Of a stretch of DNA of 51,051 bases, positions 11,370-39,193 are shown in pieces. The position numbers were made by a program, and so were the translations under genes. The DNA is from Candidatus Woesearchaeota archaeon. GTDB taxonomy: Archaea; Nanobdellota; Nanobdellia; Woesearchaeales; ARS49. The stretch lies in contig JAHWHC010000014.1 of NCBI GenBank assembly GCA_019323555.1, positions 1 to 51,051 on the forward strand. Reading direction: 5' to 3'. The notes under the pieces were generated by a model. That model did not search any database, was not told where the DNA came from, and saw nothing but the letters and a program-made list of their open reading frames with translations. Every line of letters begins with the position of its first letter. The stretch's first letter is position 1.

Positions 11370-12668
11370 ATGACTAATTTCCTTACAGTCAAGGAAGCTA
11401 TGGAAAAAGGCAAGGGCAAGGTAGCTCTGAGAGGCTGGGTCTGGAGAGAAAGAAAATCCAATGCTTATGCTTTTATTGTTCTTAGGGATCACACTGACGT
11501 TATTCAGTGTGTTATTGAGAAAGACAAGGTTAGTAAAAATATCTGGGAAGATACTGAAAAACTTGCAATTGAGTCCAGCATAGAGCTAGAAGGCACAATT
11601 AAGGAAGACAAGAGGGCGCCTACTGGTTATGAGGTTCATGTTGATAAGCTAAATGTCGTGCAGTTTGCAGAGAGATTTCCTATTGTGAAGGACCAAAGCC
11701 CTGAATTTTTGTTAGATAACAGGCATCTCTGGATTAGGTCCAGGAAGATGGTTGCAATAATGAAGATTCGTTCCACTGTCACAGGCGCGATTCATAAGTT
11801 TTTCAGGGACCAGGGTTACATAGAGTTCACTCCGCCAATCTTTCAGCCCACTCAATCAGAGGGCGGCTCAACTTTGTTTGAGGTAAAGTACTTCAAGGAA
11901 ACAACTTACCTTTCACAGACCTGGCAGTTATATGCAGAAGCTGCTGTTTTTGCTTTAGGGAAGATATATGATGTCTCTCCTACTTTTCGTGCAGAAAAAT
12001 CAAAGACCTCAAGGCATTTAACTGAATTCTGGATGGCTGAGATGGAGGCTGCCTGGATGAAGTTAGAGGAAGTCACAGAGGTTGCTAAAGAAGAGATTCG
12101 TTTCATAATCAAGGAAGTTCTAAAAAATAATACGGAAGAATTAAAATTACTAGAGCGGGATACAAAGCTTCTTGAGCATTATGCCAAGGCAAAGTATCCT
12201 ACAATAACATACGATGAAGCCCTGAAAATTCTAAAAGAAAAATACAAGATGAAGATCCCTTGGGGCAAGGATTTGAGGACTTTAGAAGAAGACAAGATCA
12301 CAAAGCATTATGGCGTGCCTGTCGTGGTAACGCATTACCCTACTGAGACAATGGCTTTCTACAAGCCGCCAGAGAAAGATAATCCCAAGACCGCAAGGTG
12401 TTTTGACATGCTTGCGCCAGAGGGCTATGTGGAGATTGTGGGCGGTTCTGAGAGAAGTCTTGACGTCAAGGATATGACTAAGCGTTTGAAAGCAATGGGT
12501 GAAGATCCCAAGAATTATTCCTGGTATTTTGATTTACGTAAATTTGGTTCAGTTCCTCATTCAGGCTATGGGGTGGGAGTTGAAAGGGTCGTTGCATGGA
12601 TATGTGGATTAGAGAACATAAAAGATGCAATTCCCTTTCCTAGGACTATGCTGAGAAAAAGTCCTTAA
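11370..12668 (+). CDS. asnS: Asparagine--tRNA ligase
   Basis: Class IIb synthetase: FRAEKSKTSRHLTEFWMAEME, GGSERS, YSWYFDLRKFGSVPHSGYGVGVERV and PFPR. Confidence 0.75.
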   Translation: MTNFLTVKEAMEKGKGKVALRGWVWRERKSNAYAFIVLRDHTDVIQCVIEKDKVSKNIWEDTEKLAIESSIELEGTIKEDKRAPTGYEVHVDKLNVVQFAERFPIVKDQSPEFLLDNRHLWIRSRKMVAIMKIRSTVTGAIHKFFRDQGYIEFTPPIFQPTQSEGGSTLFEVKYFKETTYLSQTWQLYAEAAVFALGKIYDVSPTFRAEKSKTSRHLTEFWMAEMEAAWMKLEEVTEVAKEEIRFIIKEVLKNNTEELKLLERDTKLLEHYAKAKYPTITYDEALKILKEKYKMKIPWGKDLRTLEEDKITKHYGVPVVVTHYPTETMAFYKPPEKDNPKTARCFDMLAPEGYVEIVGGSERSLDVKDMTKRLKAMGEDPKNYSWYFDLRKFGSVPHSGYGVGVERVVAWICGLENIKDAIPFPRTMLRKSP

Positions 12669-21405: not shown

Positions 21406-22206
21406 TTGTGGGTGGCAAACATAGCTGCTCCCTATAGTGATAATATGACATTAACAGATACTAAACACAGAACAAGCAGCAGCGTGGATAGAATAGTTCT
21501 TAATGCTGAAAATGAGGCACTGCAAAGAGAAGTGGATCGGTTAAAACGTAAAACTCGGCAGCTAGAATCTCAGGAAATGCTGCGCGAGGCTGAAACAGCT
21601 GCAGATTTTACAGCTGGACAGATGGATCGCACAGTATATAACGTTCGTAATGCAAATTATGGCATGGATAAATTAGTGTCTGCAATAGATGGAATACGAA
21701 GATATGATGCTTTATTGTCAAAAACACAGGGTGTGCAGGTGAATCCCCATAGAGAGGCAGTTACTGTAGTATATCTCTGTATGAACCATTATCAGCACAA
21801 GAGAGATAATATAAGCAAGACATCAGCACTGCGTGAATTGACAGAGCTTACTGGCAGGATTAACAAGTATTTTGAGATGCGTTGCAGGCCTGCTGATTGT
21901 TTTGCTAAAGGAGGCTGGCAAGATCATATGTTTATGTTTGTGCTTCCTGCTACAGACAGGGCAGGCGCAAAGACATTTTTAGATCGGGTTGTTAGGGTTG
22001 CGATTAAAGGCCATGAAGGTGCAGTTGATATTTCTTATGGTATTGCTAATCATGCTGCAGATGTCCAAGAATTGCATCCGCGCGAAGAGTCACGAGCTAT
22101 TGCATCAAGATTATTAGATGCTGCCAAGAAGATAGCTAGGGATCAAAATTCTGAATTTGCTGGCAGGATTGAAAAAGAAGCACAGTATCAGCATGATGCA
22201 GCTTAA
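21406..22206 (+). CDS. Coiled-coil protein with degenerate GGDEF-like (palm/cyclase-fold) C-terminal domain, predicted catalytically inactive
   Basis: The domain aligns by eye to GGDEF landmarks. VTVVYLCMNHYQHKRDN sits in place of lallDiDhFKxiND, CFAKGGWQDHMFMFVLPATD in place of RyGGDEFxxllP, VDISYGIAN in place of SiGva, and LLDAAKKIARDQ in place of ADxALYxAK. The start is uncertain: TTG 21406, GTG 21412 or ATG 21445. Confidence 0.55.
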   Translation: MWVANIAAPYSDNMTLTDTKHRTSSSVDRIVLNAENEALQREVDRLKRKTRQLESQEMLREAETAADFTAGQMDRTVYNVRNANYGMDKLVSAIDGIRRYDALLSKTQGVQVNPHREAVTVVYLCMNHYQHKRDNISKTSALRELTELTGRINKYFEMRCRPADCFAKGGWQDHMFMFVLPATDRAGAKTFLDRVVRVAIKGHEGAVDISYGIANHAADVQELHPREESRAIASRLLDAAKKIARDQNSEFAGRIEKEAQYQHDAA

Positions 22207-22435
22207 GTCTATATTTCTTCATAAATACACTCTTGATGCTATATACTTACAAAACGTATATGCAGTATAGTAAGTACGTCAAATATATATAATTCATGCA
22301 ACACTATAGTAATTAAGATGAATAAAACCTGAGGGCAGGTACCTGTGACGCAGGGCGTAAAAGCACAGGATCTGAACACAGGCCAAGGCTGAACGCCAAA
22401 ACCAAACGCTAAATGCCTTGTCCGCTTACCCTTTT

Positions 22436-22456
22436 ATCCTTTATTCATCCTTTATT
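22436..22456 (+). repeat. Tandem direct repeat atcctttatt(c)atcctttatt
   Basis: Two exact 10-mers with an 11-nt period, immediately after the GC-rich island. Confidence 0.6.
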
Positions 22457-22623
22457 ATCATTGGCAACATTGAGAAACAGTGGAGCTTTGTTTATTTAAG
22501 GCAAAGAAAAACACAAATAGGCGAAAAACGCACAGCTCATACCGGAGCGGTTGTTGGCTATCTTGCCGCTCCATCAAAAATTTACAAAAATGACACTCAC
22601 TCAACCCCCCTCGAAACTTAAAA

Positions 22624-22671
22624 GGCGCGTGCTCACGAATTCTTCAATTCAGCGCGCCTCCCTTTTTTTTT
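22624..22671 (+). terminator. Hairpin plus T9 intrinsic-terminator-like element
   Basis: The outer stem has six G-C pairs plus one U-G pair, and the inner stem is 5 bp GAATT/AATTC with loop cttc. It is followed by tccc and nine T residues. Confidence 0.5.
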
Positions 22672-22741
22672 ATAGTTCTCCATTATTGTTCATTGACAGG
22701 CCTGCCTTTGTTGAAATGATGATCACGCAGATCAAGAAAAG

Positions 22742-23839
22742 ATGATATTCAAAAACCAGGCCCTGGTTAATAGGTTCAAAAGATTTGTTAATTCTATAAC
22801 CCCTAAAGATCGCATAGCAGTCATTCATCACACAGATCCAGACGGCGTCTGCTCAGGAGTTATAATCTCCAAAGTTGTTGAAAGAGTTCGCGGAAAGAAG
22901 ATTGATTTGCGTTTAAATCAAAAAGGAAATGTTCACGTCATAACCCCCAAGACTTTTAATTTATTGAAATCTAAAAAGATAAATAAGCTTATACTGACTG
23001 ATTTGGGTGCAGACGAAAACCCAAAATACCTGAAAAAGATGGAGGAGTTTGCAGATGTTTTATTGATAGACCACCACAAGATTTACAATAATCTGTCCTC
23101 TAAAAAAACAGTTTTTATCAAGCCGCAGCTTTTCTGCAGTATTGACCCTGCACGATACGCGACTGCAAAGATGTGCTATGATCTTGGAGGGCTGGTTGCA
23201 GATGTCTCTGATCTTGATTGGCTTGCTGCAGTTGGTTCTGTGGGTGATATTGCAACAAAGCCCTGGGCCTCCTGGCTTAACCGTGTTTTTAAGAGGTATA
23301 AGATCAAGAAACAGAAGGATTTGTTTAAGACAAAATTTGGGCAGTGTGCAATTCTCATCAGTTCTGCAGAATCATTTGATGTTAAAAATGTAAAACTTGC
23401 TTTTGATGTCTTGTACAAGGCAAAGTCATACAAAGATGTTTTAAGATCCAAACTGAAGACTTTTAGGAAAAAGATTGATGATGAGCTTCAGAAATATCTG
23501 AAACAGCTAAAGAAAAATGCTCTTTTTGAGAAAGACATAATCTATTATGAAGTTAAGCCAAAGTATCACACAAAATCACCATTGTGCACGATTCTCGGAT
23601 TGAAATATCCTCACAAGTCTGTCTTGGTTGCAGACATATCTAGAAACCCTGTCGGCATCAGCGGCAGACGCGGCGATGTCAAGATAAAGATAAACAAGTC
23701 ATTGGAAGATGCCTGCAAAGGCATTTCAGGAGCATCTGCAGGAGGGCATGCAGTCTCTGCAGGAGCTACAGTTCCTAAAAAACACTACAAAAAATTCAAA
23801 TCACGCTTATTCAATATTTTAAATAAAAAAAGGAGGTGA
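22742..23839 (+). CDS. DHH/DHHA1-family phosphoesterase (NrnA/RecJ-like)
   Basis: Motifs VIHHTDPDGVCSG (DxD), LTDLG, LLIDHH (DHH), GSVGD and the C-terminal DHHA1 motif SAGGHAVSAGA. Confidence 0.75.
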   Translation: MIFKNQALVNRFKRFVNSITPKDRIAVIHHTDPDGVCSGVIISKVVERVRGKKIDLRLNQKGNVHVITPKTFNLLKSKKINKLILTDLGADENPKYLKKMEEFADVLLIDHHKIYNNLSSKKTVFIKPQLFCSIDPARYATAKMCYDLGGLVADVSDLDWLAAVGSVGDIATKPWASWLNRVFKRYKIKKQKDLFKTKFGQCAILISSAESFDVKNVKLAFDVLYKAKSYKDVLRSKLKTFRKKIDDELQKYLKQLKKNALFEKDIIYYEVKPKYHTKSPLCTILGLKYPHKSVLVADISRNPVGISGRRGDVKIKINKSLEDACKGISGASAGGHAVSAGATVPKKHYKKFKSRLFNILNKKRR

Positions 23840-23846
23840 AATAGAA

Positions 23847-24113
23847 ATGGCAAAATGTAAGACAATGTCATCAAAGACAATTGTTGTTATGATGCTGGGC
23901 ATCTTAGTGATAGTTGCTATAGTTGGCTTAGTAATGACCATGAAATCACAAGGCACTGGCAAGGCAGTATATTCCTCTGTACAGATGTGTCCTTATGGCC
24001 ACACTAGTCAGGCATCAGATTCACCGGTTTTAGAAGCTAAGATAAAAGCAGGCCAAGAATGCAGAAAAGCAGCATACCCTGGCTGGCACTGCTGCAAGAC
24101 AGCTATGCGCTGA
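23847..24113 (+). CDS. Small membrane-anchored Cys-rich protein (C...C...CC family, paralog of 19464..19844)
   Basis: SD ggaggtga, TM VVMMLGILVIVAIVGLVM, then C..SPVLEA..KAGQECRKA...WHCCKTA. Confidence 0.7.
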   Translation: MAKCKTMSSKTIVVMMLGILVIVAIVGLVMTMKSQGTGKAVYSSVQMCPYGHTSQASDSPVLEAKIKAGQECRKAAYPGWHCCKTAMR

Positions 24114-24133: not shown

Positions 24134-24154
24134 AAAACTATTTAAAATAGTTTT
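24134..24154 (+). promoter_or_regulatory. Palindromic TATA-like element upstream of the GGDEF gene
   Basis: aaaactattt-a-aaatagtttt has perfect 10-nt arms and is centred 25 nt upstream of ATG 24169. Confidence 0.45.
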
Positions 24155-24168
24155 ATTACCGTTTTTTT

Positions 24169-25152
24169 ATGGCTTATGAAGAGATATTGCTGAAGTTTTT
24201 GGACTTGCTTAACTCTGCAATGAACGTCGACCAGGTCCTTCAGCGTAGTTGTGACTTCTTTTATACAGAATTCCGGCTGGCAGACTGCTCAATAGCATTC
24301 AATAAAACTGAAAAAAGGCAGAACAATGCCCCGCAAGGCATGCAGGATGTTGAAAAAGTCATCAAGAGCCAGGTTCTTGACTCTAATTCTTTTCTGTTTA
24401 TCAAGGACCCAAAGTCAGATATATCTCTTTCTGATTGTAAGGGTGCTAAGGCAATAGATAACCCTATCCTTGCTTTTCCAATTCCTCATGAGCAGAAGGC
24501 AGTTGGTGTCTGTTTTTTTTATTCTAGCATTGACTTAAGCAATTATATTGAGCTTGTCTCCCTGCTTCTCTCTAAGATGGCTGTTGCCTGCTCAAGAGCA
24601 AAGTATTTTGAGGACGCGCAGCACTGTGCTATCACAGATCTTCTCACTGGCCTGTATAATAAGGCATATTTTATTGAGGCTATCAAGACAGAGATTGCTC
24701 GTGGAAAGCGCAATCAAAAGCCTCTTTCCTTGGTCATGTTTGATTTTGATAATTTCAAGGAATTGAATGACACCAAGGGGCATATGGAGGGAGACAGGAT
24801 CTTGAAAGAAGTTGGTAGGCTGCTCAAGGAGCAGATTCGCTCAATGGACATCCCTTGCAGGTATGGGGGAGAAGAATTTACTATCATTCTGCCGGAGACA
24901 GCGCAGGATGATGCGTTTTCTATTGCTGAACGGCTGAGAAAGTCTGTTGCAGATGCATTTTCTGGCTTGACAACTATCTCTTTAGGTGTTGTCACCTGCA
25001 TGAATTCCAGCATTGATGCTGACACCATGGTTAAGCAGGCAGATGCTGCGCTCTATAAGGCGAAGAATCTTGGAAAGAACAGGACTGTTAATTTTGTTGT
25101 GATTGATAAGAGCATTGCCCCCATTGATGTTCAGGCAGCAATAGGCAAGTGA
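24169..25152 (+). CDS. Diguanylate cyclase: N-terminal sensory (GAF-like?) region plus intact GGDEF domain
   Basis: DLLTGLYNKAYF, LVMFDFDNFKELNDTKGHMEGD and GGEEF (aa 233-237, nt 24865-24879). The RSMD I-site lies 5 residues upstream. Also ISLGVV and ADAALYKAKNLGKNR. Confidence 0.85.
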   Translation: MAYEEILLKFLDLLNSAMNVDQVLQRSCDFFYTEFRLADCSIAFNKTEKRQNNAPQGMQDVEKVIKSQVLDSNSFLFIKDPKSDISLSDCKGAKAIDNPILAFPIPHEQKAVGVCFFYSSIDLSNYIELVSLLLSKMAVACSRAKYFEDAQHCAITDLLTGLYNKAYFIEAIKTEIARGKRNQKPLSLVMFDFDNFKELNDTKGHMEGDRILKEVGRLLKEQIRSMDIPCRYGGEEFTIILPETAQDDAFSIAERLRKSVADAFSGLTTISLGVVTCMNSSIDADTMVKQADAALYKAKNLGKNRTVNFVVIDKSIAPIDVQAAIGK

Positions 25153-26346
25153 TTATTTTCCGCTCACTATCTCAATCACGTCTCCGTGTTTGAGTATGTG
25201 GTCTCTGCCTATTGTTCTTTTTGTTTTTACATCTATTGCTCTCACAAAGTTATCCCCAAAGTCAGAATGAAGCTTGTATGCAAAATCTAGGGCAGTTGAT
25301 CCTTCTGGCAAAAGAAAGCAGTCTGGAAGTATGTTGCCGTGCTGGTCAGATAGCTTGTTCACGCCTCCTGGAAATATCGCGATGTGTTTCAAAAGAGTGA
25401 ATACTGCATCATCGATTGCTGGCTGTACCCCTGTGCTTTTCCATTTGTTCAGTATTTTTGATTTTATGAACTGTAGTGCCTTGTCTTGTTTTTCATTAAG
25501 CTGGCCGATTATCTTGAAGTCCTGTGCTCCAGGAATATACTCTATCAGTCCTTTTTTGGCAGCCTCTTTTAAGGCCAGTTCTGATTCTGCTGAGCAGGGT
25601 ATTATTGTGTATTCTGGAAACTCTTTTTTTACTCTCTCTAGGTTTGCTTCTGCTGATGGAAGGTCTATCTTGTTTGCTGCGATTATCATTGGTTTTGTTG
25701 CTTTTCTGAATTCCTTTGCCATCTCCAGCAGGTTTTCTTCTGTCCACTCCACAGGTCGCTCAGTGTTAAGGTCTAGTTTTTTGAATATGCTGTCAACAAG
25801 ATCCTCTGTTATGTTCAGTCCTGATAATTGTTTTGCCAGGACTTTTGTTATCTGGCTTTTTTCCTGCTGGACCTGTCTTGCTAGTTTTTCCCATCCTTTT
25901 TTCAGTATTGATAGATACCACATGTCTAGTTCTATCTCTAGGAATTTTATGTCAAAAGCAGGGTCATAGCTGCCTGGCTCTACTGGCTCGCCTTTTTCAT
26001 TTGTGCTTCCTGCAATGTCTACTATGTGGATTAAGGCGTGCGCCTGTCTTAGGTCATCCAGGAATTTGTTGCCCATTCCTTTTCCTTCGTGAGCGCCTGG
26101 GACTAATCCTGCCACGTCTATCACTTCTACTGGCACGAATCTTGTCCCCTCTAAACAATACCCGAATCTTGGGTTGCATTTTACATTGAAATGTTTTTCC
26201 GCACACTCTACCCGCACATGCCCGAATCCTTTGTTTGGGTCTATTGTTGCAAAAGGGTAGTTTGCGATGAGTATCTCTGCCAAGGTTAAGGCTTTGAAAA
26301 ATGTGCTTTTTCCTACGTTTGCTTTTCCTACCACGCCGATTATCAT
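25153..26346 (-). CDS. ychF: YchF/OLA1-type (Obg-family) GTPase/ATPase with C-terminal TGS-like domain
   Basis: G1 GVVGKANVGKSTFF, DVAGLV, NKID, and a C-terminal ...KHGDVIEIVSGK. Confidence 0.8.
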   Translation of the reverse strand: MIIGVVGKANVGKSTFFKALTLAEILIANYPFATIDPNKGFGHVRVECAEKHFNVKCNPRFGYCLEGTRFVPVEVIDVAGLVPGAHEGKGMGNKFLDDLRQAHALIHIVDIAGSTNEKGEPVEPGSYDPAFDIKFLEIELDMWYLSILKKGWEKLARQVQQEKSQITKVLAKQLSGLNITEDLVDSIFKKLDLNTERPVEWTEENLLEMAKEFRKATKPMIIAANKIDLPSAEANLERVKKEFPEYTIIPCSAESELALKEAAKKGLIEYIPGAQDFKIIGQLNEKQDKALQFIKSKILNKWKSTGVQPAIDDAVFTLLKHIAIFPGGVNKLSDQHGNILPDCFLLPEGSTALDFAYKLHSDFGDNFVRAIDVKTKRTIGRDHILKHGDVIEIVSGK

Positions 26347-26423: not shown

Positions 26424-27026
26424 ATGGTTTCAATAAAGCACAGGTATACAGGCGTTGAGTATAAGACAGTTACCAGGTTTTCTGTAAAGTTTAAGGATGT
26501 TTTTGTTCTTGACGATCTTTATGTCTTGATGTATGAGTGGCTTATTGAGCATGGGTTTGCAACAAGGTCAGATGCTGATTTTCCTGAAAGATATTATTTA
26601 GATAGGACTGGTCCTGCTGGTAAAGAGGTATGGATTAGGTGGAGGCCTAAGAGATATCCTCTTCCTGGAAATAATTTTTGGCGGTTTGATTTAGATATTG
26701 ACATGCACGTTCTTAGCCTGAAGGATGTTGAGTTGGTTGTGCAGAACAAGAAATTAAAGGCGCATAAGGGGGAGATTGAGGTGCAGGTCGCTGCAAACTT
26801 GATTTATGATGCAGCAGGAGACTGGAGAAAGAATTCTCTTCTAAAGCCGTTCAGGAGTTTTTATTTCAAGAGATTCATGAGCAAGAAAAAAGATATGCTT
26901 GAAAAAGAGTTTTATAATGAGGCTTATGAGTTCAGGGATGCAATTAATAATTACCTGAAGCTGGAGACCTACCTGCCAAGCAAGATGGCTGGCCTGGAAT
27001 TCTGGCCAAAACGCACCCCTGAGTAA
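26424..27026 (+). CDS. Unknown-family protein, paralog 1 of a tandem triplet
   Basis: 200 aa. Shares the ungapped block LKDVELVVQNKKLKAHKGEIEVQVAANLIYDAAGDW with the next two ORFs. Confidence 0.7.
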   Translation: MVSIKHRYTGVEYKTVTRFSVKFKDVFVLDDLYVLMYEWLIEHGFATRSDADFPERYYLDRTGPAGKEVWIRWRPKRYPLPGNNFWRFDLDIDMHVLSLKDVELVVQNKKLKAHKGEIEVQVAANLIYDAAGDWRKNSLLKPFRSFYFKRFMSKKKDMLEKEFYNEAYEFRDAINNYLKLETYLPSKMAGLEFWPKRTPE

Positions 27027-27034
27027 GTAGAAAC

Positions 27035-27044
27035 TTTTATATAT
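27035..27044 (+). promoter_or_regulatory. TATA box for 27067 gene (leaderless)
   Basis: gtagaaac-ttttatatat, centred 27 nt upstream of the ATG. Confidence 0.5.
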
Positions 27045-27066
27045 CCTTCTTCCAACTTTTTAATTA

Positions 27067-27567
27067 ATGACAACAATAAACATGCCCACAGTAGCAATAA
27101 AGCATAAGGGTATCTTTAACCTGTCTGATATTCTTCAAGGCATTAAGAGTTACTTTGAAGCTGATTATTTTAAGGTGCACTACCCAAAGCATAAGTTGAA
27201 GCAGCCCTCTACTGGCTGGGAGCATGAGATGGAGATCTATGGCGAGCGTAAGATGAATGAGTATGTTAAGTTCAAGATAACGCTCTTCATTCGCCTTTAT
27301 GATATTAAAGATATCGAGATTATTAAAGAAGGCAAAAAGGTGCAGACCAACAGCGGAAGGATTACTGTTGAGATCAGCGGCGAGATCACCCTGGATTTTG
27401 AGAACAGGTTTGGGGGCTCAAAACTATTGCAGGGGCTTCAGGACTTTTATCACAAGTACATTATCAAGCAGGACATTGGTGATGTCTGGGAAGATGATAT
27501 CATGCTTAAGATGGTTAATTTAGGAAAATTAATAAGGGAGAAGTGTCAACAAGACATAATCACTTAG
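27067..27567 (+). CDS. Unknown-family protein, paralog 2 of a tandem triplet
   Basis: 166 aa. Shares the block IKDIEIIKEGKKVQTNSGRITVEISGEITLDFENRF. Confidence 0.7.
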   Translation: MTTINMPTVAIKHKGIFNLSDILQGIKSYFEADYFKVHYPKHKLKQPSTGWEHEMEIYGERKMNEYVKFKITLFIRLYDIKDIEIIKEGKKVQTNSGRITVEISGEITLDFENRFGGSKLLQGLQDFYHKYIIKQDIGDVWEDDIMLKMVNLGKLIREKCQQDIIT

Positions 27568-27570
27568 AAA

Positions 27571-28071
27571 ATGTCTGAAAAAGCAACAGTCGTGGATAAA
27601 GAAGCAATAAAGTATTCTGGCTTGTTCTCTGTTAAAGAGCTCTACGCACTTATTGAGCAATGGGAAGAGTCAAAAGGGTACTTTCCTGTTGAGAATTTTA
27701 TTGAGGAGAGTGTTGAGAAAGAGGGCAAAGTTATCACAGCAAAGCTTGAGCCTTTCAAGAAGCTCACTGATTATGCAAAGGCAGTTATCAAGATTGATAT
27801 AATGATATCTGACTGTAAAGAGGTTGAGGTTACACGGGCTGGCAAAAAGCAGAAATTGAACAAAGGGATTGTTGTTATTGAGATCATGTCTATTTTAGAG
27901 ACAGATTATGAGCACAGATGGGAGATGAAGCCCTGGCTTTATGTCTTGAGGACTATTTTTGAGAAATATATTTACACGCCGTTTTTAAGCGGCTTCAGGA
28001 ATGCCATCCGCGAGGATACAGACCATTTGAAAGAGCAGATAAAGGCATTTTTAAATCTCTATAAGAAGTAA
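27571..28071 (+). CDS. Unknown-family protein, paralog 3 of a tandem triplet
   Basis: 166 aa. Shares the block CKEVEVTRAGKKQKLNKGIVVIEIMSILETDYEHRW. Starts 3 nt after the paralog 2 stop. Confidence 0.7.
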   Translation: MSEKATVVDKEAIKYSGLFSVKELYALIEQWEESKGYFPVENFIEESVEKEGKVITAKLEPFKKLTDYAKAVIKIDIMISDCKEVEVTRAGKKQKLNKGIVVIEIMSILETDYEHRWEMKPWLYVLRTIFEKYIYTPFLSGFRNAIREDTDHLKEQIKAFLNLYKK

Positions 28072-28206: not shown

Positions 28207-28293
28207 GCCTCCGTAGCTTAGTAGCTATAGCGGCTGACTTGTATCTAAATGCAAGCAATCAGCAGGTCGAGGGTGCAACTCCCTCCGGAGGCT
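28207..28293 (+). tRNA. tRNA-Thr (anticodon TGT) with 14-nt intron at canonical 37/38 position
   Basis: Acceptor GCCTCCG/CGGAGGC, D arm GCTT..AGC, anticodon stem GCTGA/TCAGC. The 21-nt loop is CTTGTA|tctaaatgcaagca|A. T arm GAGGG-TGCAACT-CCCTC, discriminator T, no encoded CCA. Exon CTTG pairs with intron CAAG, flanked by two 3-nt bulges (BHB). Confidence 0.85.
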
Positions 28294-28357
28294 TTCGAAG
28301 CATAAGCGAGAAAGCTGTACGGAGACCAGCCAAAAACTCTGTGAGTGTTGGAGCGCT

Positions 28358-28377
28358 GCCTCCGGAGGCTTATTTTT
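28358..28377 (+). terminator. Palindrome GCCTCCGGAGGC plus T-run downstream of tRNA-Thr
   Basis: 12-nt perfect palindrome followed by ttattttt. It repeats the last 12 nt of the tRNA (CCTCCGGAGGCT). Confidence 0.4.
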
Positions 28378-28397
28378 CAATAAAAAAAGGAGATAAT

Positions 28398-28856
28398 ATG
28401 AAAGAAATATATGATAAACTAAAAAAAGAATTTGATCTGCCGGATTTTGATGTTCTTAATAATGAGTTTGAGATCATTACAATTGAGCCAGACGGATTTT
28501 TCTTGAGAGAGATCAAGAGAAAAATAAATGAGCGGCTTAGTTCTGCTTGTGAATTATTGACAAAGCTGATTCAGCCAGAGACTACGTCCTTGGTTGACTT
28601 GTATGAATATCGGTGTTTTGATGATTCTGAAAAAAAGAAAATATTTGCGTTATTTTGCAATGTGATGTATCTAAAGCGAAAGATTAATGAATCAGAACTA
28701 TTGTTAGATGATAAGGTTGATGCTGCAATCATCAAGCAGGCAGCAGAGACTTGGCCTAAATTAAGGAAGCAGATGATTCCTTTTGTCAAGGAATTAGAGG
28801 TTTGCTGGGAAAAGACCCCAGAATCAGATACCGAGTTAAAGGAGTATTTAGGATGA
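28398..28856 (+). CDS. Hypothetical helical protein (152 aa), translationally coupled to adk
   Basis: ATG 28398 preceded by SD aggag (MKEIYDKLKKEFDLPDF...). The track ORF start at 28239 lies inside the tRNA and is rejected. ATGA overlap with adk. Confidence 0.6.
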   Translation: MKEIYDKLKKEFDLPDFDVLNNEFEIITIEPDGFFLREIKRKINERLSSACELLTKLIQPETTSLVDLYEYRCFDDSEKKKIFALFCNVMYLKRKINESELLLDDKVDAAIIKQAAETWPKLRKQMIPFVKELEVCWEKTPESDTELKEYLG

Positions 28857-30474: not shown

Positions 30475-30563
30475 CGCACTCGAGGGGATTCGAACCCCCG
30501 ACCCCTTGCTGGCTCCTTGGTAAATAGGAGGCAAGTGCTCTATCCAAGCTGAGCTACGAGTGC
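30475..30563 (-). tRNA. tRNA-Arg (anticodon CCT) with 14-nt intron at canonical 37/38 position
   Basis: The minus strand reads as follows. Acceptor GCACTCG, TA, D arm GCTC-AGCTTGGATA-GAGC, anticodon stem CTTGC. The loop is CTCCTA|tttaccaaggagcc|A, closed by GCAAG. Variable loop GGGTC, T arm GGGGG-TTCGAAT-CCCCT, acceptor CGAGTGC, discriminator G. Exon CTCC pairs with intron GGAG, flanked by 3-nt bulges. Confidence 0.85.
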
Positions 30564-30587: not shown

Positions 30588-30599
30588 TTTTTAAAGTTT
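30588..30599 (-). promoter_or_regulatory. TATA box for tRNA-Arg (and co-transcribed truD)
   Basis: The minus strand reads aaactttaaaaa, centred about 30 nt upstream of the mature tRNA 5' end. This implies a very short leader. Confidence 0.45.
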
Positions 30600-31839
30600 A
30601 CCACTTTCTTTTTGTCTTAAAGACTTCCTGGAAAATTGAGGATATCCAGTTTGCTGTGGTAAAGTATGGTATGAATAAGAAGTATCCTACTGCGCCTGCT
30701 ATGTTTCTTGTTATCTTTTCATTGAATCTCTTGTGCGCGTGCAGTATAAGGTAAAAGCCAAGCACTGTTGCCAGGATGATTGGTATCATTATCCTAAGAT
30801 TCTGTCCAAGTAGCATCTGCTGCAGTGTCGGCATCTCTAGTATTCTTGTCCAGAAGTACCCTTTTATTGTTGCGCTTCTTATTGTGAACTCAATCATTTT
30901 GTCCATGAAGTTGTATGCGATTATGCTTACGTTTATCAACAATAGTCCTACTACCAGGACATTTACAGGCATCTGGAATGTTCCGAAGATTCCGTGTTTT
31001 CTTGAGAACATCATTGATCTGTAGTTCCACATGTTGTAGATGTATCCTCTTGCCCACCTTATTCTCTGCTTCCAGAGCTTGTTTAGGTTGTGTGGAGCAA
31101 GTGTGTGTGTTGTGCTTCTTGTCTCCATCTCTATCTGGTGCCCATTGAATTTCAGGCGCATTGCTATCTCCAGGTCTTCTGTCAGGTTGTTCCTGTCTTT
31201 TGTGAAGCCGCCGACTTTTCTCAGTGTTTCTGTCCTGTATACAGATAATACTCCTGGCGTTATTGCTAGTGTTCCTAGCACTGCCATCAGTTTTCTTACG
31301 AAATTGCTCATGATGTATTCAAAGAATTGTATTCTTTCAATCATCTTGTTTGGGCTGTCTACTCTTACCCTGCTTATCACAGCCCCTACATTAGAATCAT
31401 CAAAATGAGGCACTACTAGTTGTAGGGCGTCTTTCTCTATTCTGCTGTCTGCATCTACCACTGCAAAGAATTCTCCTGTTGCGCGCTCAATAGCTGCATT
31501 TACTGCACTTGATTTTCCGCCGTTTGGCTTGTTGATTAGGATTATGTTGTATCCTTTGTTTTTCTTGATTATGTTTTGAGCCACTTTTGCAGTATTATCT
31601 GTACTGCCGTCATTTACTATGATTATCTCTATCTTCTCTTTTGGATAGTCTGATTGTACTATAGAATTCACAGTTTTTTCTATTGTTCTTGCTTCATTAT
31701 ATGCAGGTATGCCTATTGTGACTTTTGGAAACCTCTTTAGTTTAGTCTTCTTTGGCTCCTCTGCGTGCAGTACACTGATCCATATGATTGCCAGCCATAG
31801 TGTGAAGAACAATATGGCCCATAATATGTGCTGTAACAT
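30598..31839 (-). CDS. Processive family-2 glycosyltransferase (PgaC/IcaA/NodC/cellulose-synthase-like), membrane-embedded
   Basis: IPAYNEA, VNDGSTDNT, GGKSSAVNAA, VVDADS, TEDLEIAMRL and QRIRWARG (QxxRW), with N- and C-terminal TM helices. Confidence 0.8.
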   Translation of the reverse strand: MLQHILWAILFFTLWLAIIWISVLHAEEPKKTKLKRFPKVTIGIPAYNEARTIEKTVNSIVQSDYPKEKIEIIIVNDGSTDNTAKVAQNIIKKNKGYNIILINKPNGGKSSAVNAAIERATGEFFAVVDADSRIEKDALQLVVPHFDDSNVGAVISRVRVDSPNKMIERIQFFEYIMSNFVRKLMAVLGTLAITPGVLSVYRTETLRKVGGFTKDRNNLTEDLEIAMRLKFNGHQIEMETRSTTHTLAPHNLNKLWKQRIRWARGYIYNMWNYRSMMFSRKHGIFGTFQMPVNVLVVGLLLINVSIIAYNFMDKMIEFTIRSATIKGYFWTRILEMPTLQQMLLGQNLRIMIPIILATVLGFYLILHAHKRFNEKITRNIAGAVGYFLFIPYFTTANWISSIFQEVFKTKRKW

Positions 31840-37401: not shown

Positions 37402-38259
37402 TTACCAGCCTCCTGAGCTTCCGCCTCCTCCAAAGCTTCCGCCCCCGAATCCGCCAAAGCCTCCGCCAAATCCTCCAGAGCTTTTTCCAAATCCGCCCCA
37501 GATTATTCCGCCAGGCCCTCCTTTTTTCATGAATGCTACTTGTGCTGCTAGTATCCAGAACATTACACTAAGCACAAGTGCGATCATTAGATAAGTTAAT
37601 CCTAGGAATATAGATACTATGATTATTGCTGCGTCTGCTCCTGCTCTTGTTTTCCATTTGTGCTTTTTTTGTTTCTCTGTTGCAACAAGTAATATCAATA
37701 ATAAGATTAAGTATCCAAACACTATGAGTCCTCCAAGGGTGCTCATTGTTGTTGGTTTGTATTTTGCCACTATGCTTGGGTCTTCTTGAAGCAGGCCTTT
37801 TATGTCACTCAAGGCTTCATAGACTCCTCTGCCGTATTCTTCAAGTCTAAATGCAGGTGTCAGGATCTGTCTCCCGATTCTTCCTGTTTTTGCGTCTGGC
37901 AGAACCCCTTCAAGGCCGTAGCCAGTCTCAAATCTATACTTTCTGTCTTGAACAGATATTAAAAGCAGCAATCCATTGTTTTTCTCTTCTTTTCCTATGC
38001 CCCAGTTTCTTGCAACTGCTAGCGAGTATTCTTCTAGTGGTTGCCCCTCTAGGCTTTCGATAGTAAGTACTGCAACTTCTGCTGTGGTATTTTTTTCTAT
38101 CGCTTCGCATAGTTTCTCTATCTGTGGCCCATACTCTCCTAGAATGTTTGCATTGTCTGTTACATATCCTTTGTAAGCAGGGATTTCTGCTAGAACAACA
38201 GGTAATAGTAAGAATATTAGCAGTAATAATATTGGCTTTTTGTTCATTCTTTTATCCAA
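37402..38259 (-). CDS. TPM-domain (YgcG-like) membrane protein with Gly-rich tail
   Basis: Signal/[14 protein letters not shown] helices, and C-terminal [24 protein letters not shown]. Classical pairing with lemA. Confidence 0.75.
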
Positions 38260-39139
38260 AGTATGCTGGTTTGTCTTTCTGCATCTCTTTTGCTTTTGCA
38301 GCTGTGAAATGCTCTCTTAGTTCTTTGTATGTTTCTTCTATCTCTTTTGTTACAGATGGCCTTACTTTTTGCAGTGCTTCCTCAAAGTGTTTTTTGGTTA
38401 TCTCTTTTGCTTTCATGTCTTCTCTTAAGGCGATTATTGCTGCCTCTCTGCAAACTGCCTCTATGTCTGCTCCTGCATAGCCCTCTGTTTGTGCTGCTAG
38501 TTCTTTTGATGTCATGCCATTGATTGGCATTCCTTTTGTGTGTACTGTGAATATTTCTTCTCTTGATTTTTCATCTGGCACTGGCGTTAGTATTATCCTG
38601 TCAAATCTTCCTGGCCTCAATAATGCAGTGTCTACCATGTCTGGCCTGTTTGTTGCCCCGATTATCACGATGTCGTGTAAATCCTCTAGCCCGTCTAGTT
38701 CAGTAAGTAATTGATTAACAACTCTCTCAGACACGTGTGAATCTGAACTTACCCCTCTTCTTGGCACTAGTGAATCTATTTCATCAAAGAATATGATTGT
38801 TGGTGCTGTCTGTCTTGCTTTCTTGAATATCTCTCTGACAGCTTTTTCACTCTCGCCGACCCATTTTGATAATAGTTCTGGTCCTTTTATGGATATGAAG
38901 TTTGCCTCGCTTTCATGCGCCACTGCTTTGGCCATGAGTGTTTTTCCTGTTCCTGGCGCGCCATACAAGAGGATTCCTTTAGGTGCTTTTACTCCCATTC
39001 TCTTGAATGCATCTGGGTGTTTTAGCGGCCACTCTACTGCCTCTATCAATTCTTGTCTTACTCCTTCTAGTCCGCCTATGTCTTCCCATTTTACATTTGG
39101 GACGTCTATTAATACCTCTCTTAGTGCTGAGGGTCTCAC
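38252..39139 (-). CDS. cdc48: Cdc48/VCP AAA+ ATPase, D2 domain portion (downstream part of an interrupted frame)
   Basis: [19 protein letters not shown], Walker [10 protein letters not shown], Walker B IIFFDEID. It is in the same frame as 39194..40540, separated by one TAA plus 18 sense codons. Confidence 0.7.
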
Positions 39140-39193
39140 TACTTTTAGTGATTCTATGAAGTCTGATTTTGTGATTATCAGTTTTTCTAGTAT

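What the first reader, a model, noticed from the sequence alone, without database searches (positions are those of the whole stretch)
24169..25152. Catalytically intact GGDEF diguanylate cyclase embedded in an unmistakably archaeal neighbourhood
The 327-aa ORF carries every landmark of an active cyclase:
- DLLTGLYNKAYF.
- The metal/substrate block FDFDNFKELNDTKGHMEGD. Its Asn (..LND) and Asp (..EGD) correspond to the guanine-specifying PleD N335/D344, so the predicted product is c-di-GMP rather than a Hypr-type product.
- GGEEF at nt 24865-24879.
- An RxxD inhibitory site (RSMD) exactly 5 residues upstream of GGEEF.
- The ADAALYKAK helix.

The N-terminal ~150 aa look like a small-ligand sensory domain.

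The gene is flanked within a few kb on both sides by archaeal markers: PhoU-AbrB, HerA/Mre11, intron-containing tRNAs, GatDE and Cdc48. GGDEF domains are overwhelmingly bacterial. To my knowledge, c-di-GMP signalling has not been established experimentally in Archaea.
Basis: partly seen in the sequence, partly recalled or inferred. Interest (0 to 1): 0.75.

Follow-up and report, generated by a model that had tools for sequence, protein, structure and literature searches.

The report
Native archaeal GAF-GGDEF diguanylate cyclase
A tiny DPANN archaeon (Candidatus Woesearchaeota) carries a conserved, selected and apparently fully functional gene for making the "bacterial" signal molecule c-di-GMP, which makes the open question of c-di-GMP signalling in Archaea directly testable.

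Summary
ORF 24169-25152 (+) encodes a 327-aa GAF-GGDEF protein (Pfam GGDEF E=1.2e-42, full profile). Every PleD catalytic, metal-, phosphate- and guanine-binding residue is present, plus an RxxD I-site 5 residues before GGEEF.

It is not contamination or a stray transfer. The window is an NCBI contig of Candidatus Woesearchaeota. At least 120 relatives at 32-89% identity keep GGEEF (119/120) and the guanine-specifying block (118/120). All 12 relative loci inspected, on 11 distinct contigs of 14-969 kb, place the gene at the same archaeal position, convergent with a YchF/YGR210 GTPase gene and usually near OapB/OapC, HerA/Mre11 and AbrB-PhoU. Codon usage matches the neighbours and dN/dS is 0.08.

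The family carries a C-terminal tail motif absent from 75 sampled bacterial GGDEFs.

New here: an upstream "hypothetical" gene (21445-22206) is a coiled-coil plus catalytically dead GGDEF fold with an invariant RxxD, a candidate c-di-GMP receptor. An intact RecJ-like DHH/DHHA1 gene usually sits next to the cyclase.

No EAL, HD-GYP, PilZ, MshEN or riboswitch was found, so degradation and output remain unknown. Databases already label these proteins, and one paper mentions DPANN GGDEF hits; nothing has been tested experimentally.

Verdict: new member of a known kind. Interest 0.6.

The parts
24169..25152 (+). GAF-GGDEF diguanylate cyclase gene, 327 aa plus stop
   Evidence: ORF. Pfam GGDEF E=1.2e-42. 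AF2 pLDDT 91.2. dN/dS 0.08 against the L001 ortholog.
24169..24537 (+). N-terminal divergent GAF sensor domain (aa ~1-123). F30 and P104 are invariant; F35, C40, D84 and A102 are nearly invariant.
   Evidence: Pfam GAF in 20/54 and GAF_2 in 12/54 family members. Model topology and full-length Foldseek matches to 4zmu and 5llw. Conservation.
24538..24633 (+). Long linker helix (aa 124-155) joining GAF to GGDEF; presumed dimerisation and signalling helix
   Evidence: DSSP helix H124-155 in the model. Analogous to the coiled-coil/S-helix of 5llw, DgcR and DgcB, which appear among the structural hits. The function is inferred.
24628..25083 (+). GGDEF catalytic domain (aa 154-305)
   Evidence: Pfam envelope 154-305. 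Superposes on the WspR GGDEF domain at rmsd 1.5 A over 165 columns.
24742..24795 (+). Metal/substrate block D192-F-D194-N-F-K197-E-L-N200-D-T-K-G-H205-M-E-G-D209
   Evidence: Maps to PleD D327, K332, N335 and D344. Invariant in the 54-sequence alignment. The FKxxNDxxGHxxGD block is present in 118/120 relatives.
24838..24849 (+). RxxD allosteric I-site (R224-S-M-D227), 5 residues upstream of GGEEF
   Evidence: Kept in 53/54 core family members, but 0/34 of the 441-aa form and 2/10 of the ~504-aa form.
24865..24879 (+). GGEEF active-site (A-site) motif, aa 233-237
   Evidence: Exact GGEEF in 119/120 relatives.
25084..25149 (+). Lineage-specific C-terminal tail (aa 306-327, ...VIDKSIAPIDVQAAIGK); function unknown
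   Evidence: D313 invariant; I319, D320 and A324 nearly invariant. The D[KR]x[LI]GV[IL]D-type motif is in 100/119 archaeal relatives and 0/75 sampled bacterial GGDEF proteins.
24134..24154 (+). Perfect 10+1+10 palindrome AAAACTATTT-A-AAATAGTTTT containing a TATA-like ATTTAAAATA about 25 nt upstream of the ATG; candidate own promoter (leaderless mRNA) or operator
   Evidence: Read directly from the sequence. The function is inferred only.
23847..24113 (+). Small membrane-anchored Cys-rich ORF (88 aa) between the DHH and GGDEF genes, preceded by a GGAGGTGA Shine-Dalgarno-like site
   Evidence: A small ORF of 88-160 aa is called at this position in nine of the eleven relative loci that include the upstream flank (L001, L002, L004-L007, L091), none in L088, L089, L090 or L092. 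dN/dS 0.30. No family match.
22742..23839 (+). Stand-alone DHH/DHHA1 phosphoesterase (365 aa), archaeal RecJ-like; candidate nanoRNase or pGpG / c-di-GMP hydrolase, or simply a replication/repair nuclease
   Evidence: Pfam DHH plus DHHA1. NCBIfam RecJ_archaeal E=1.2e-25, below its cutoff. PDB MjaRecJ2 E=1e-9. DHH and GGH motifs are present in the sequence. A DHH gene lies within two genes of the GGDEF gene in 10 of the 11 relative loci that include the upstream flank, all but L089; it is on the same strand and upstream in 9 of those (opposite strand in L088) and overlaps the GGDEF gene by 4 nt in L090.
21445..22206 (+). KY310_00950 'hypothetical protein' (253 aa): coiled-coil stalk plus a catalytically dead GGDEF-fold domain with an invariant RPAD (RxxD). 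Candidate c-di-GMP receptor or cyclase partner.
   Evidence: 14 homologs at 45-100% identity. Invariant RPADCF.K.GWQ...F.FVLPATD block. hhalign against the cyclase family: probability 80.5%, E=1.3e-5, 158 columns. AF2 pLDDT 75. Foldseek top 26 hits are all GGDEF domains, led by SiaD at 2.4e-6. Same position in L091.
25153..26346 (-). YchF-related / YGR210-type GTPase with a TGS domain, convergent with the GGDEF gene with 0 nt between the stop codons; positional anchor of the locus
   Evidence: Pfam and NCBIfam NF007171 E=4e-171. Present beside or one gene away from the GGDEF gene in every relative locus inspected.

Best explanation
The ORF is a genuine, chromosomally native gene of a Candidatus Woesearchaeota (DPANN) archaeon. 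It encodes a one-component sensor enzyme.

Proposed mechanism:
- An N-terminal GAF domain senses an unidentified small ligand or redox cue.
- It transmits the signal through a long helix, which sets the dimer geometry of the C-terminal GGDEF domains.
- Two GTP-loaded GGDEF domains condense 2 GTP into c-di-GMP.
- In this subfamily the product feeds back on the RxxD I-site to cap output.

Evolution: the gene was acquired from Bacteria once, early in a large woesearchaeal clade. It has since been inherited vertically at a fixed locus under strong purifying selection.

Shown here:
- Domain identity.
- Every catalytic, specificity and I-site residue.
- The fold.
- The archaeal location.
- Vertical inheritance and selection.

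Inferred:
- Enzymatic activity and product.
- GAF-controlled dimerisation.
- The single-transfer history.

Downstream circuit (speculative): the neighbouring dead-GGDEF protein with an invariant RxxD (21445-22206) may bind c-di-GMP or pair with the cyclase. The RecJ-like DHH/DHHA1 enzyme (22742-23839) may clear pGpG or c-di-GMP in place of the missing EAL/HD-GYP enzymes.
For: Domain and fold:
- Pfam GGDEF E=1.2e-42, full-length profile. TIGR00254 E=3.3e-50.
- PleD alignment maps all metal, phosphate, guanine and I-site residues.
- AF2 model pLDDT 91.2.
- The GGDEF domain superposes on WspR at 1.5 A. Full-length matches go to the GAF-GGDEF cyclase Dcsbis (4zmu) and to 5llw.
- GAF Pfam hits in 20 of 54 relatives.

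Conservation:
- D192, D194, K197, N200, D201, H205, D209, R231 and GGEEF are invariant in 54 sequences reaching down to 32% identity.
- GGEEF in 119/120 relatives and FKxxNDxxGHxxGD in 118/120.

Selection and composition:
- dN/dS 0.080 overall (GAF half 0.070, GGDEF half 0.080), against 0.056-0.070 for neighbouring housekeeping genes.
- GC 0.43 and codon-usage distance 0.160, against a window mean of 0.157 +/- 0.025.

Archaeal identity and vertical descent:
- The window equals a 51,051-nt NCBI Woesearchaeota contig.
- The same synteny holds in L001-L007 and L088-L092, on contigs up to 969 kb and including three NCBI assemblies.
- The 502-504-aa and 441-aa forms are positional orthologs.
- The family forms a clade apart from 80 sampled bacterial GGDEF domains. 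With a half-sample (40 bacterial), bootstrap support is 66/100 and mean Jaccard 0.98.
- The C-terminal tail motif is in 100/119 family members and 0/75 bacterial proteins.
Against: - There is no biochemical evidence. c-di-GMP has never been detected in any archaeon, although only Haloferax and Sulfolobus were assayed (PMC8646023, PMC10249747).
- No EAL, HD-GYP, PilZ or MshEN domain was found in the window's 45 main ORFs (44 of at least 120 aa plus the 88-aa ORF) or by motif scan, nor in the precomputed Pfam hits of the genes called in the 12 relative loci. No c-di-GMP riboswitch was found. A complete signalling circuit is therefore not demonstrated.
- The I-site is lost in the 441-aa form and in most ~504-aa forms, so product inhibition is not a family-wide feature.
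- The NJ tree is based on 155 columns, has moderate bootstrap support, and uses a non-targeted bacterial sample. The donor lineage and the single-transfer scenario are not firmly established.
- The whole region is syntenic in these genomes. Adjacency of the DHH and dead-GGDEF genes is therefore weak evidence of a functional link.
Confidence: 0.8

Rival explanations
1. Assembly chimera or bin contamination: a bacterial GGDEF gene was stitched into, or mis-binned with, archaeal DNA.
For: GGDEF is overwhelmingly bacterial. Galperin et al. 2018 raised exactly this worry for archaeal MAGs. One relative (P0059) is labelled 'Candidatus Binatia bacterium'.
Against: - The same gene order holds in all 12 relative loci inspected (ENA, JGI, NCBI, Logan), at 32-89% identity and on contigs up to 969 kb.
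- The GGDEF stop codon abuts the archaeal GTPase gene's stop codon with 0 nt between them, here and in four other distinct loci (L001/L002/L003, L004, L005, L006).
- Composition and codon usage are indistinguishable from the neighbours.
- The 'Binatia' contig itself shows the archaeal synteny, so it is that label that looks mis-binned.
Confidence: 0.02
2. The domain is enzymatically active but makes something other than c-di-GMP (for example 3'3'-cGAMP like Hypr GGDEFs, linear pppGpG, or other dinucleotides), or acts mainly as a GTP-binding or GTP-hydrolysing sensor.
For: - No canonical c-di-GMP turnover or receptor domains were seen nearby.
- The family has a unique C-terminal tail of unknown role.
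- Some GGDEF domains have other activities, for example the GdpP GGDEF ATPase. PF24898 GGDEF_GdpP gave weak hits in 19/54 members.
Against: - The guanine-specifying pair N200/D209 (PleD N335/D344) is invariant in the 54-sequence alignment, and its sequence block is present in 118/120 relatives. From my own knowledge of Hallberg et al. 2016, Hypr enzymes replace the Asp with Ser.
- All residues needed for phosphodiester formation are intact.
- The best sequence and structure matches are bona fide diguanylate cyclases: PleD, WspR, DgcR and Dcsbis.
Confidence: 0.1
3. A non-catalytic role: the protein is a scaffold or receptor, or a decaying passenger from a recent transfer, and contributes no cyclase activity in vivo.
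For: Degenerate GGDEF paralogs do exist in the same locus: ORF 21445-22206 here, and the L007 second GGDEF with FRDKF in place of GGEEF.
Against: - dN/dS is 0.08, and catalytic residues are invariant across deep divergence.
- Decaying or receptor-type GGDEFs lose exactly these residues, as the neighbouring paralog illustrates.
- Ameliorated composition argues against a recent transfer.
Confidence: 0.05

Closest known systems
Dcsbis (PA2771) of Pseudomonas aeruginosa, a GAF-GGDEF diguanylate cyclase (PDB 4zmu/4zmm)
   Same: Same two-domain architecture and similar size (341 vs 327 aa). Foldseek aligns the whole model to it (342 columns, E=5.7e-17). Intact GGEEF-type A-site.
   Different: Only about 22% identity. 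The window protein has a lineage-specific C-terminal tail, is encoded by an archaeon, and its GAF is so divergent that Pfam misses it in this sequence.
PleD (Caulobacter) and WspR (Pseudomonas), the reference I-site-regulated diguanylate cyclases (PDB 1w25, 2v0n, 3bre, 3i5b)
   Same: - Best sequence matches in the PDB (E=3e-31, 34-38% identity in the GGDEF domain).
- Identical catalytic, guanine-binding and RxxD I-site residues, including the secondary Arg (R255 = PleD R390).
- rmsd 1.5 A to the WspR GGDEF domain.
   Different: Those are activated by phosphorylation of REC domains. Here the input is a GAF domain, and no two-component partner is evident.
Degenerate-GGDEF c-di-GMP receptors that bind through the I-site (PelD, PopA, Bdellovibrio CdgA); named from my own knowledge. 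This is the comparison for the neighbouring ORF 21445-22206.
   Same: GGDEF fold with a destroyed A-site but a retained RxxD at the I-site position.
   Different: - No detectable sequence-family membership: no Pfam or NCBIfam hit.
- It has a coiled-coil stalk like SiaD and DgcB rather than the PelD or PopA architectures.
- The RxxD-to-hairpin spacing differs by one or two residues.
- Ligand binding is untested.
Previously noted archaeal GGDEF proteins: Methanocella arvoryzae CAJ37382, the Micrarchaeum REC-GGDEF (inactivated), and more than 300 BLAST hits in Asgard and DPANN (PMC5847659, PMC8646023)
   Same: GGDEF domains encoded on DNA assigned to Archaea. DPANN membership had already been noted in passing.
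   Different: Those reports left contamination open and gave no synteny, selection or active-site analysis. Here the family is shown to be syntenic, vertically inherited and catalytically intact.

Membership tests
GGDEF domain family (Pfam PF00990 / TIGR00254) | Significant full-length match to the family profile, above the curated threshold | tested here: met
   145.9 bits against a cutoff of 23.8, profile positions 1-161 of 161. TIGR00254 170 bits against 37.4.
Catalytically competent diguanylate cyclase | GG[DE]EF A-site motif with the metal-coordinating Glu, plus the metal-binding Asp of beta1 (PleD D327) | tested here: met
   GGEEF at 233-237; D192 = D327; invariant in the family.
Catalytically competent diguanylate cyclase | Guanine-specific substrate recognition (PleD N335 and D344) and phosphate contacts (K332, R366, K442, R446) | tested here: met
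   N200, D209, K197, R231, K299 and K303 (Arg to Lys).
Catalytically competent diguanylate cyclase | GGDEF palm fold | tested here: met
   AF2 pLDDT 91; rmsd 1.5 A to the WspR GGDEF domain.
Catalytically competent diguanylate cyclase | Conversion of 2 GTP to c-di-GMP by a dimer | not testable with these tools
   Requires enzymology with LC-MS. Dimerisation through the GAF domain and long helix is inferred only from the model.
I-site (RxxD) product-inhibited cyclases | RxxD five residues upstream of GG[DE]EF, plus a secondary Arg (PleD R390) | tested here: met
   R224-S-M-D227 followed by IPCRY then GGEEF; R255 = R390. Kept in 53/54 core members but 0/34 of the 441-aa orthologs.
Hypr GGDEF (cGAMP synthases) | Ser in place of the guanine-specifying Asp (PleD D344 position). 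The criterion comes from my own knowledge of Hallberg et al. 2016. | tested here: not met
   D209 is invariant in the 54-sequence alignment, and the FKxxNDxxGHxxGD block that contains it is present in 118/120 relatives.
GAF sensor domain | Match to GAF profiles and the GAF fold | tested here: met
   No Pfam hit for this sequence itself. PF01590 matched 20/54 relatives and PF13185 matched 12/54. The model aligns full-length to GAF-containing cyclases 4zmu and 5llw. The ligand is unknown.
Complete c-di-GMP signalling system | A dedicated phosphodiesterase (EAL or HD-GYP) | tested here: not met
   None among the 45 main window ORFs, by motif scan, or among the precomputed Pfam hits of the genes called in the 12 relative loci. 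Only about 51 kb of the genome was available. The DHH/DHHA1 enzyme is a candidate substitute, untested.
Complete c-di-GMP signalling system | A receptor or effector (PilZ, MshEN, I-site protein, riboswitch) | tested here: inconclusive
   No PilZ or MshEN and no Rfam c-di-GMP-I/II match. A dead-GGDEF protein with an invariant RxxD lies two genes upstream. Binding is untested.
Native archaeal gene (as opposed to contaminant) | Conserved position among archaeal marker genes in independent assemblies, and host-like composition | tested here: met
   12 relative loci on 11 distinct contigs of up to 969 kb. Codon usage. NCBI taxon label of the window contig.

The most novel reading that the evidence does not exclude
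Woesearchaeota (DPANN archaea) run a minimal, non-canonical c-di-GMP circuit encoded at one locus.
- A GAF-GGDEF cyclase makes c-di-GMP.
- A coiled-coil, catalytically dead GGDEF protein with an invariant RxxD acts as the receptor or as a regulatory partner.
- A RecJ-like stand-alone DHH/DHHA1 enzyme replaces EAL/HD-GYP in degradation.

If so, c-di-GMP would be a genuine archaeal second messenger. In an episymbiotic lineage it might control attachment to hosts or surfaces. A FlaI/TadA-like ATPase and a PgaC-like glycosyltransferase lie in the same window.
Probability: 0.25. Interest if true: 0.85.

Novelty: new member of a known kind. Interest (0 to 1): 0.6.

Why it matters
Reviews up to 2023 state that c-di-GMP has not been detected in Archaea and that diguanylate cyclases are almost exclusively bacterial. 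Specialists have asked that GGDEF genes on archaeal contigs be confirmed.

This locus supplies that confirmation for one large DPANN lineage: a catalytically intact cyclase held at a fixed chromosomal position under strong purifying selection across deep divergence.

That turns "does any archaeon use c-di-GMP?" into a set of bench experiments. A 327-aa soluble protein can be expressed and assayed. A candidate receptor and a candidate hydrolase sit next to it.

It also suggests that ultra-small symbiotic archaea retain a lifestyle-switch messenger despite extreme genome reduction. And it shows that at least one contig deposited under a bacterial label ("Binatia") carries this archaeal synteny.

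Tried and rejected
1. GTDB species-genome scan, meant to give the taxonomic distribution. Only bacterial GGDEF domains came back (30-46% identity, domain only). It says nothing about distribution and was reused only as a bacterial outgroup sample.

2. BLASTP of the 266-aa ORF against the second GGDEF genes of L004 and L007, and hhalign against L007, were not significant. Orthology of these positional equivalents is unproven. Homology of the ORF to GGDEF emerged only from profile-profile comparison and structure.

3. HMM search of the ORF266 profile against PDB sequences gave only coiled-coil noise.

4. The DHH neighbour as a GdpP/NrnA-type cyclic-dinucleotide phosphodiesterase. The closest families are archaeal RecJ/GAN nucleases, all below their cutoffs. 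It is kept only as a hypothesis.

5. c-di-GMP riboswitch in the conserved 490-nt leader upstream of the DHH gene. No Rfam hit at E<=1.

6. Crude motif scans for MshEN, PilZ, EAL and HD-GYP in all 262 ORFs of at least 60 aa. Nothing credible; the one 'EVLIR' match is in a spurious antisense ORF.

7. Recent HGT or a compositional island. Rejected on GC, GC3 and codon usage.

8. A bacterial origin for the ~504-aa 'long' relatives. Rejected: they show the archaeal synteny.
Full report
**1. The observation**

- The ORF at 24169-25152 (+) exists, starts with ATG and encodes 327 aa.
- It matches Pfam GGDEF (PF00990) at E=1.2e-42 (145.9 bits, cutoff 23.8), over aa 154-305 and the entire 161-position profile. 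It matches NCBIfam TIGR00254 at E=3.3e-50.
- The best solved relatives are PleD (E=3e-31), DgcR, WspR and DosC.
- The PleD alignment is ungapped through the active-site half. The PDB chain index is shifted by one relative to canonical numbering, as the 2wb4 alignment shows, so the correct offset is 135.

| Window residue | PleD residue | Role |
|---|---|---|
| D192 | D327 | metal binding |
| K197 | K332 | phosphate contact |
| N200 | N335 | guanine recognition |
| D209 | D344 | guanine recognition |
| R224-x-x-D227 | R359-x-x-D362 | I-site |
| R231 | R366 | phosphate contact |
| GGEEF 233-237 | 368-372 | A-site |
| R255 | R390 | secondary I-site Arg |
| K299 / K303 | K442 / R446 | phosphate contact |

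**2. The protein**

- An AlphaFold2 model built on a 54-sequence family alignment is confident (mean pLDDT 91.2).
- It shows an N-terminal alpha/beta domain (aa 1-123), a long helix (124-155) and a GGDEF palm domain.
- Foldseek against the PDB aligns the whole chain to sensor-coupled cyclases. These include the GAF-GGDEF enzyme Dcsbis (4zmu, 342 columns) and the phytochrome-coupled cyclase 5llw. The GGDEF domain superposes on WspR at 1.5 A.
- Pfam does not detect GAF in this sequence. It does in 20 of 54 family members (PF01590) and 12 of 54 (GAF_2). The sensory domain is therefore a divergent GAF with an unknown ligand.
- F30 and P104 are invariant, and F35, C40, D84 and A102 are nearly invariant.

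**3. Is it really archaeal?**

The window carries archaeal hallmark genes:
- OapB/OapC origin-associated proteins.
- HerA plus a Mre11-like phosphoesterase.
- AbrB-PhoU.
- GatD/GatE.
- Cdc48.
- Deoxyhypusine synthase.
- RtcB plus archease.
- Translin and TruD.
- An S-layer-like protein and a FlaI-like ATPase.

It also has two tRNAs whose 87-89 nt span the full 71-position model, consistent with introns. A homology search for a neighbouring gene returned a 100% match on a 51,051-nt NCBI contig of "Candidatus Woesearchaeota archaeon" (locus tag KY310_00950). That contig is the window itself.

The cyclase has at least 120 relatives in the protein collection (clusters at 90% identity). Several are labelled Woesearchaeota or Nanoarchaeota. 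I inspected the genomic context of relatives spanning the whole range:

| Relative | Identity to query | Locus | Contig |
|---|---|---|---|
| P0002 | 89% | L001-L003 (three separate contigs) | 21-33 kb |
| P0013-type | 75% | L091 | 32 kb |
| P0028 | 48% | L007 | 214 kb |
| P0030 | 46% | L004 | 505 kb |
| P0048 | 46% | L005 | 227 kb |
| P0051 | 45% | L006 | 228 kb |
| P0069 | 41% | L090 | 14 kb |
| P0062, 502-aa GAF-PocR-GGDEF | 40% | L088 | 969 kb |
| P0059, 504 aa | 40% | L092 | 16 kb |
| P0100, 441 aa | 36% | L089 | 153 kb |

- In every case the GGDEF gene is convergent with the same YchF/YGR210-type GTPase gene, either directly adjacent or one gene away.
- The GTPase gene is followed by conserved uncharacterised genes (three in ten of the loci, two in L090, none in L092).
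- The block usually lies downstream of Mre11-HerA-GTPase-OapB-OapC-...-AbrB/PhoU-DHH.
- L089 adds eRF1, ribosomal protein L37ae and prefoldin.
- The one member labelled "Candidatus Binatia bacterium" (P0059) sits in this same archaeal synteny, so that label looks like a binning error.
- The gene's GC (0.43), GC3 (0.46) and codon-usage distance (0.160) are typical of the window (mean 0.157 +/- 0.025).

Chimerism, contamination and recent transfer are therefore excluded for practical purposes.

**4. Is it functional?**

- Against the L001 ortholog, dN/dS is 0.080 overall: 0.070 for the GAF half and 0.080 for the GGDEF half. Neighbouring housekeeping genes give 0.056-0.070.
- In the 54-sequence alignment the invariant residues include D192, D194, K197, N200, D201, H205, D209, R231, G233-F237, K299 and K303.
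- Across 120 relatives, GGEEF is exact in 119 (the exception is a fragment). The FKxxNDxxGHxxGD block is present in 118.
- The Asn/Asp pair specifies guanine. Hypr cGAMP-synthase GGDEFs replace the Asp with Ser (my own knowledge, Hallberg et al. 2016). The predicted product is therefore c-di-GMP.
- The RxxD I-site is kept in 53 of 54 core members. It is absent from all 34 of the 441-aa orthologs and from 8 of 10 long forms. Product inhibition is thus a feature of this subfamily, not of the whole family.

**5. Evolution**

- In an NJ tree of the GGDEF domain (155 columns), all but two of the 120 relatives (P0084 and P0111), together with the window protein, form a clade apart from 80 sampled bacterial GGDEF domains.
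- With a half-sample (40 bacterial), bootstrap support for that split, which left out those two sequences, is 66/100, with mean Jaccard 0.98.
- An independent synapomorphy is a conserved C-terminal tail beyond the Pfam domain, D[KR]x[LI]GV[IL]D...GK (aa 306-327 here). It is present in 100 of 119 family members and 0 of 75 bacterial proteins.
- Together with the fixed chromosomal position, this favours a single ancient acquisition followed by vertical descent. Sensor modules were later swapped: plain GAF, GAF-PocR, and the 441-aa form.
- The bacterial sample was not targeted, so the donor lineage is unknown.

**6. The surrounding module**

(a) Two genes upstream, ORF 21445-22206 (NCBI "hypothetical protein", 253 aa) has no Pfam or NCBIfam hit.
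- It has 14 conserved homologs with an invariant block RPADCF.K.GWQ...F.FVLPATD..GA.
- Profile-profile comparison with the cyclase family gives probability 80.5%, E=1.3e-5, over 158 columns covering the whole GGDEF domain in register.
- Its AF2 model (pLDDT 75) is a long coiled coil plus a beta-alpha-alpha-beta-beta-alpha-beta-alpha-beta palm.
- The top 26 Foldseek hits are all GGDEF domains, led by the coiled-coil-stalk cyclases SiaD and DgcB.
- The metal-binding Asp, the Lys, the ND..GH block and GGEEF are all lost, while RxxD is invariant. This is the pattern of I-site-type degenerate GGDEF receptors.
- The gene is at the same position in L091. It is absent from L001, where an ~860-nt segment is missing.
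- In L004 and L007 the same slot holds a different GGDEF-domain gene. The two are 42% identical to each other, and L007's has FRDKF in place of GGEEF.

(b) The DHH/DHHA1 gene (22742-23839) has intact DHH and GGH motifs.
- It is closest to archaeal RecJ-family nucleases: MjaRecJ2 at E=1e-9, and NCBIfam RecJ_archaeal at E=1e-25 but far below its cutoff.
- It has the short stand-alone architecture typical of nanoRNases.
- A DHH gene lies within two genes of the GGDEF gene in 10 of the 11 relative loci that include the upstream flank. It overlaps the GGDEF gene by 4 nt in L090, is on the opposite strand in L088 and is absent from L089.
- L092 carries a second DHH/DHHA1 paralog.
- Its link to c-di-GMP turnover is a hypothesis only. 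The entire region is syntenic, so adjacency is weak evidence.

(c) A small membrane-anchored Cys-rich ORF (23847-24113) lies between the DHH and GGDEF genes. It has a GGAGGTGA ribosome-binding site. The GGDEF gene has its own TATA-like palindrome (24134-24154) about 25 nt upstream of its ATG.

(d) No canonical turnover or effector element was found.
- No EAL, HD-GYP, PilZ or MshEN was found among the window's 45 main ORFs, in a motif scan of 262 ORFs, or among the precomputed Pfam hits of the genes called in the 12 related loci.
- No c-di-GMP riboswitch was found.
- Possible outputs in the window are a FlaI/TadA-like ATPase (1065-3326) and a PgaC/IcaA-like GT2 (30598-31839). These are speculative.

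**7. Comparison with what is known**

- Functionally it is a GAF-GGDEF, I-site-regulated diguanylate cyclase of the Dcsbis/PleD/WspR kind. All sequence- and fold-level membership criteria are met. Activity cannot be tested here.
- Galperin et al. 2018 knew of only one archaeal GGDEF and suspected contamination for the others.
- Braun et al. 2021 found no c-di-GMP in Haloferax or Sulfolobus. They noted more than 300 archaeal BLAST hits, many in Asgard and DPANN lineages.
- Romling 2022 asked for confirmation on archaeal contigs.
- The 2023 review still says that c-di-GMP has not been detected in archaea.
- A 2025 cold-seep survey found c-di-GMP genes in only 6% of archaeal MAGs.
- Searches for an experimentally characterised archaeal cyclase found nothing.

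The existence of such genes is therefore recorded in databases and mentioned in passing, but has been neither analysed nor tested.

**8. Verdict**

- It is a real gene and a genuine archaeal one.
- It is very likely an active c-di-GMP synthase (confidence 0.8).
- It is a new member of a known enzyme kind in an unexpected domain of life.
- It has a lineage-specific tail and a neighbouring dead-GGDEF partner, which together hint at a minimal non-canonical circuit (probability about 0.25).
- Interest is 0.6. The enzyme itself is not surprising, but it makes a long-standing open question directly testable.

Noticed in passing
window 22252-22741, core 22317-22449 (+): The non-coding stretch between ORF266 and the DHH gene is 91.7% identical to L001 and 86% identical to L091, although flanking genes have dS of 0.7-1.1. 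Positions 22305-22438 are 100% identical to L001. The core folds into a three-way junction (MFE -43 kcal/mol, z=-3.5, 0 of 200 shuffles as stable). The closing helix GAUGAAUAAA/UUUAUUCAUC shows compensatory changes in L005/L006, and L005 independently folds to the same shape. A gap of about 500 nt recurs upstream of the DHH gene in seven further loci (L001, L002, L005, L006, L088, L091, L092). No Rfam family matches at E<=1. It is a candidate novel ncRNA or leader.
   Followed up: partly
window 22245-22290: A conserved palindromic element (ACGTAT...GTATAGTAAGTACGT) followed by TATATATAA lies at the 5' edge of that non-coding region. It is invariant across window/L001/L005/L006. It could be a promoter or operator, or an origin-recognition-box-like site, given the nearby OapB/OapC genes.
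   Followed up: no
window 26424-28071 (+): Three conserved uncharacterised genes (200, 166 and 166 aa) follow the YchF-type GTPase gene in ten of the twelve related loci inspected (two in L090, none in L092). None has a Pfam or NCBIfam match. The two 166-aa proteins are paralogs (27% identity, E=4e-13).
   Followed up: partly
L092 (ENA ERZ27256872 k141_2731589) and protein P0059: A 504-aa GAF-PocR-GGDEF protein that NCBI labels 'Candidatus Binatia bacterium' lies in the woesearchaeal synteny PhoU(-)/DHH/GGDEF/YGR210-GTPase(-). This is probably a mis-binned archaeal contig in a bacterial MAG.
   Followed up: yes
window 38252-40540 (-): Cdc48/VCP appears split into two adjacent ORFs that overlap or are separated by a short gap. 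One carries the N domain plus the first AAA domain (39194-40540, 448 aa). The other carries the second AAA domain (38252-39139, 295 aa). This could be a real split gene, a frameshift or an assembly error.
   Followed up: no
window 28207-28293 (+) and 30475-30563 (-): Two tRNA genes of 87-89 nt match the complete 71-position Rfam model, which implies insertions of about 16-18 nt (introns). ARAGORN reported only one of them, tRNA-Gly(GCC). The mechanical ORF 28239-28856 overlaps the first tRNA, so its start is probably wrong.
   Followed up: partly
window 30598-31839 (-) and 1065-3326 (-): A PgaC/IcaA-like family-2 glycosyltransferase (E=3.8e-51, below the equivalog cutoff) and a 753-aa FlaI/TadA-like secretion ATPase with an unassigned ~225-aa N-terminal region. 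In bacteria both classes are classic c-di-GMP targets. No PilZ or MshEN signature was found.
   Followed up: partly
L004 7478-8191 and L007 5359-6177: In two distant relatives the slot between AbrB-PhoU and DHH holds a second, Pfam-positive but N-terminally truncated or degenerate GGDEF gene. L004 keeps GGEEF and L007 has FRDKF; the two are 42% identical to each other. Whether these are orthologs of the window's dead-GGDEF ORF could not be shown.
   Followed up: partly
window 8859-10223 and 11370-12668 (+): Two class-II aminoacyl-tRNA synthetase genes of the Asp/Asn/Lys type lie 1.1 kb apart, flanking a tRNA-guanine transglycosylase gene on the opposite strand. They sit alongside GatD/GatE elsewhere in the window.
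   Followed up: no
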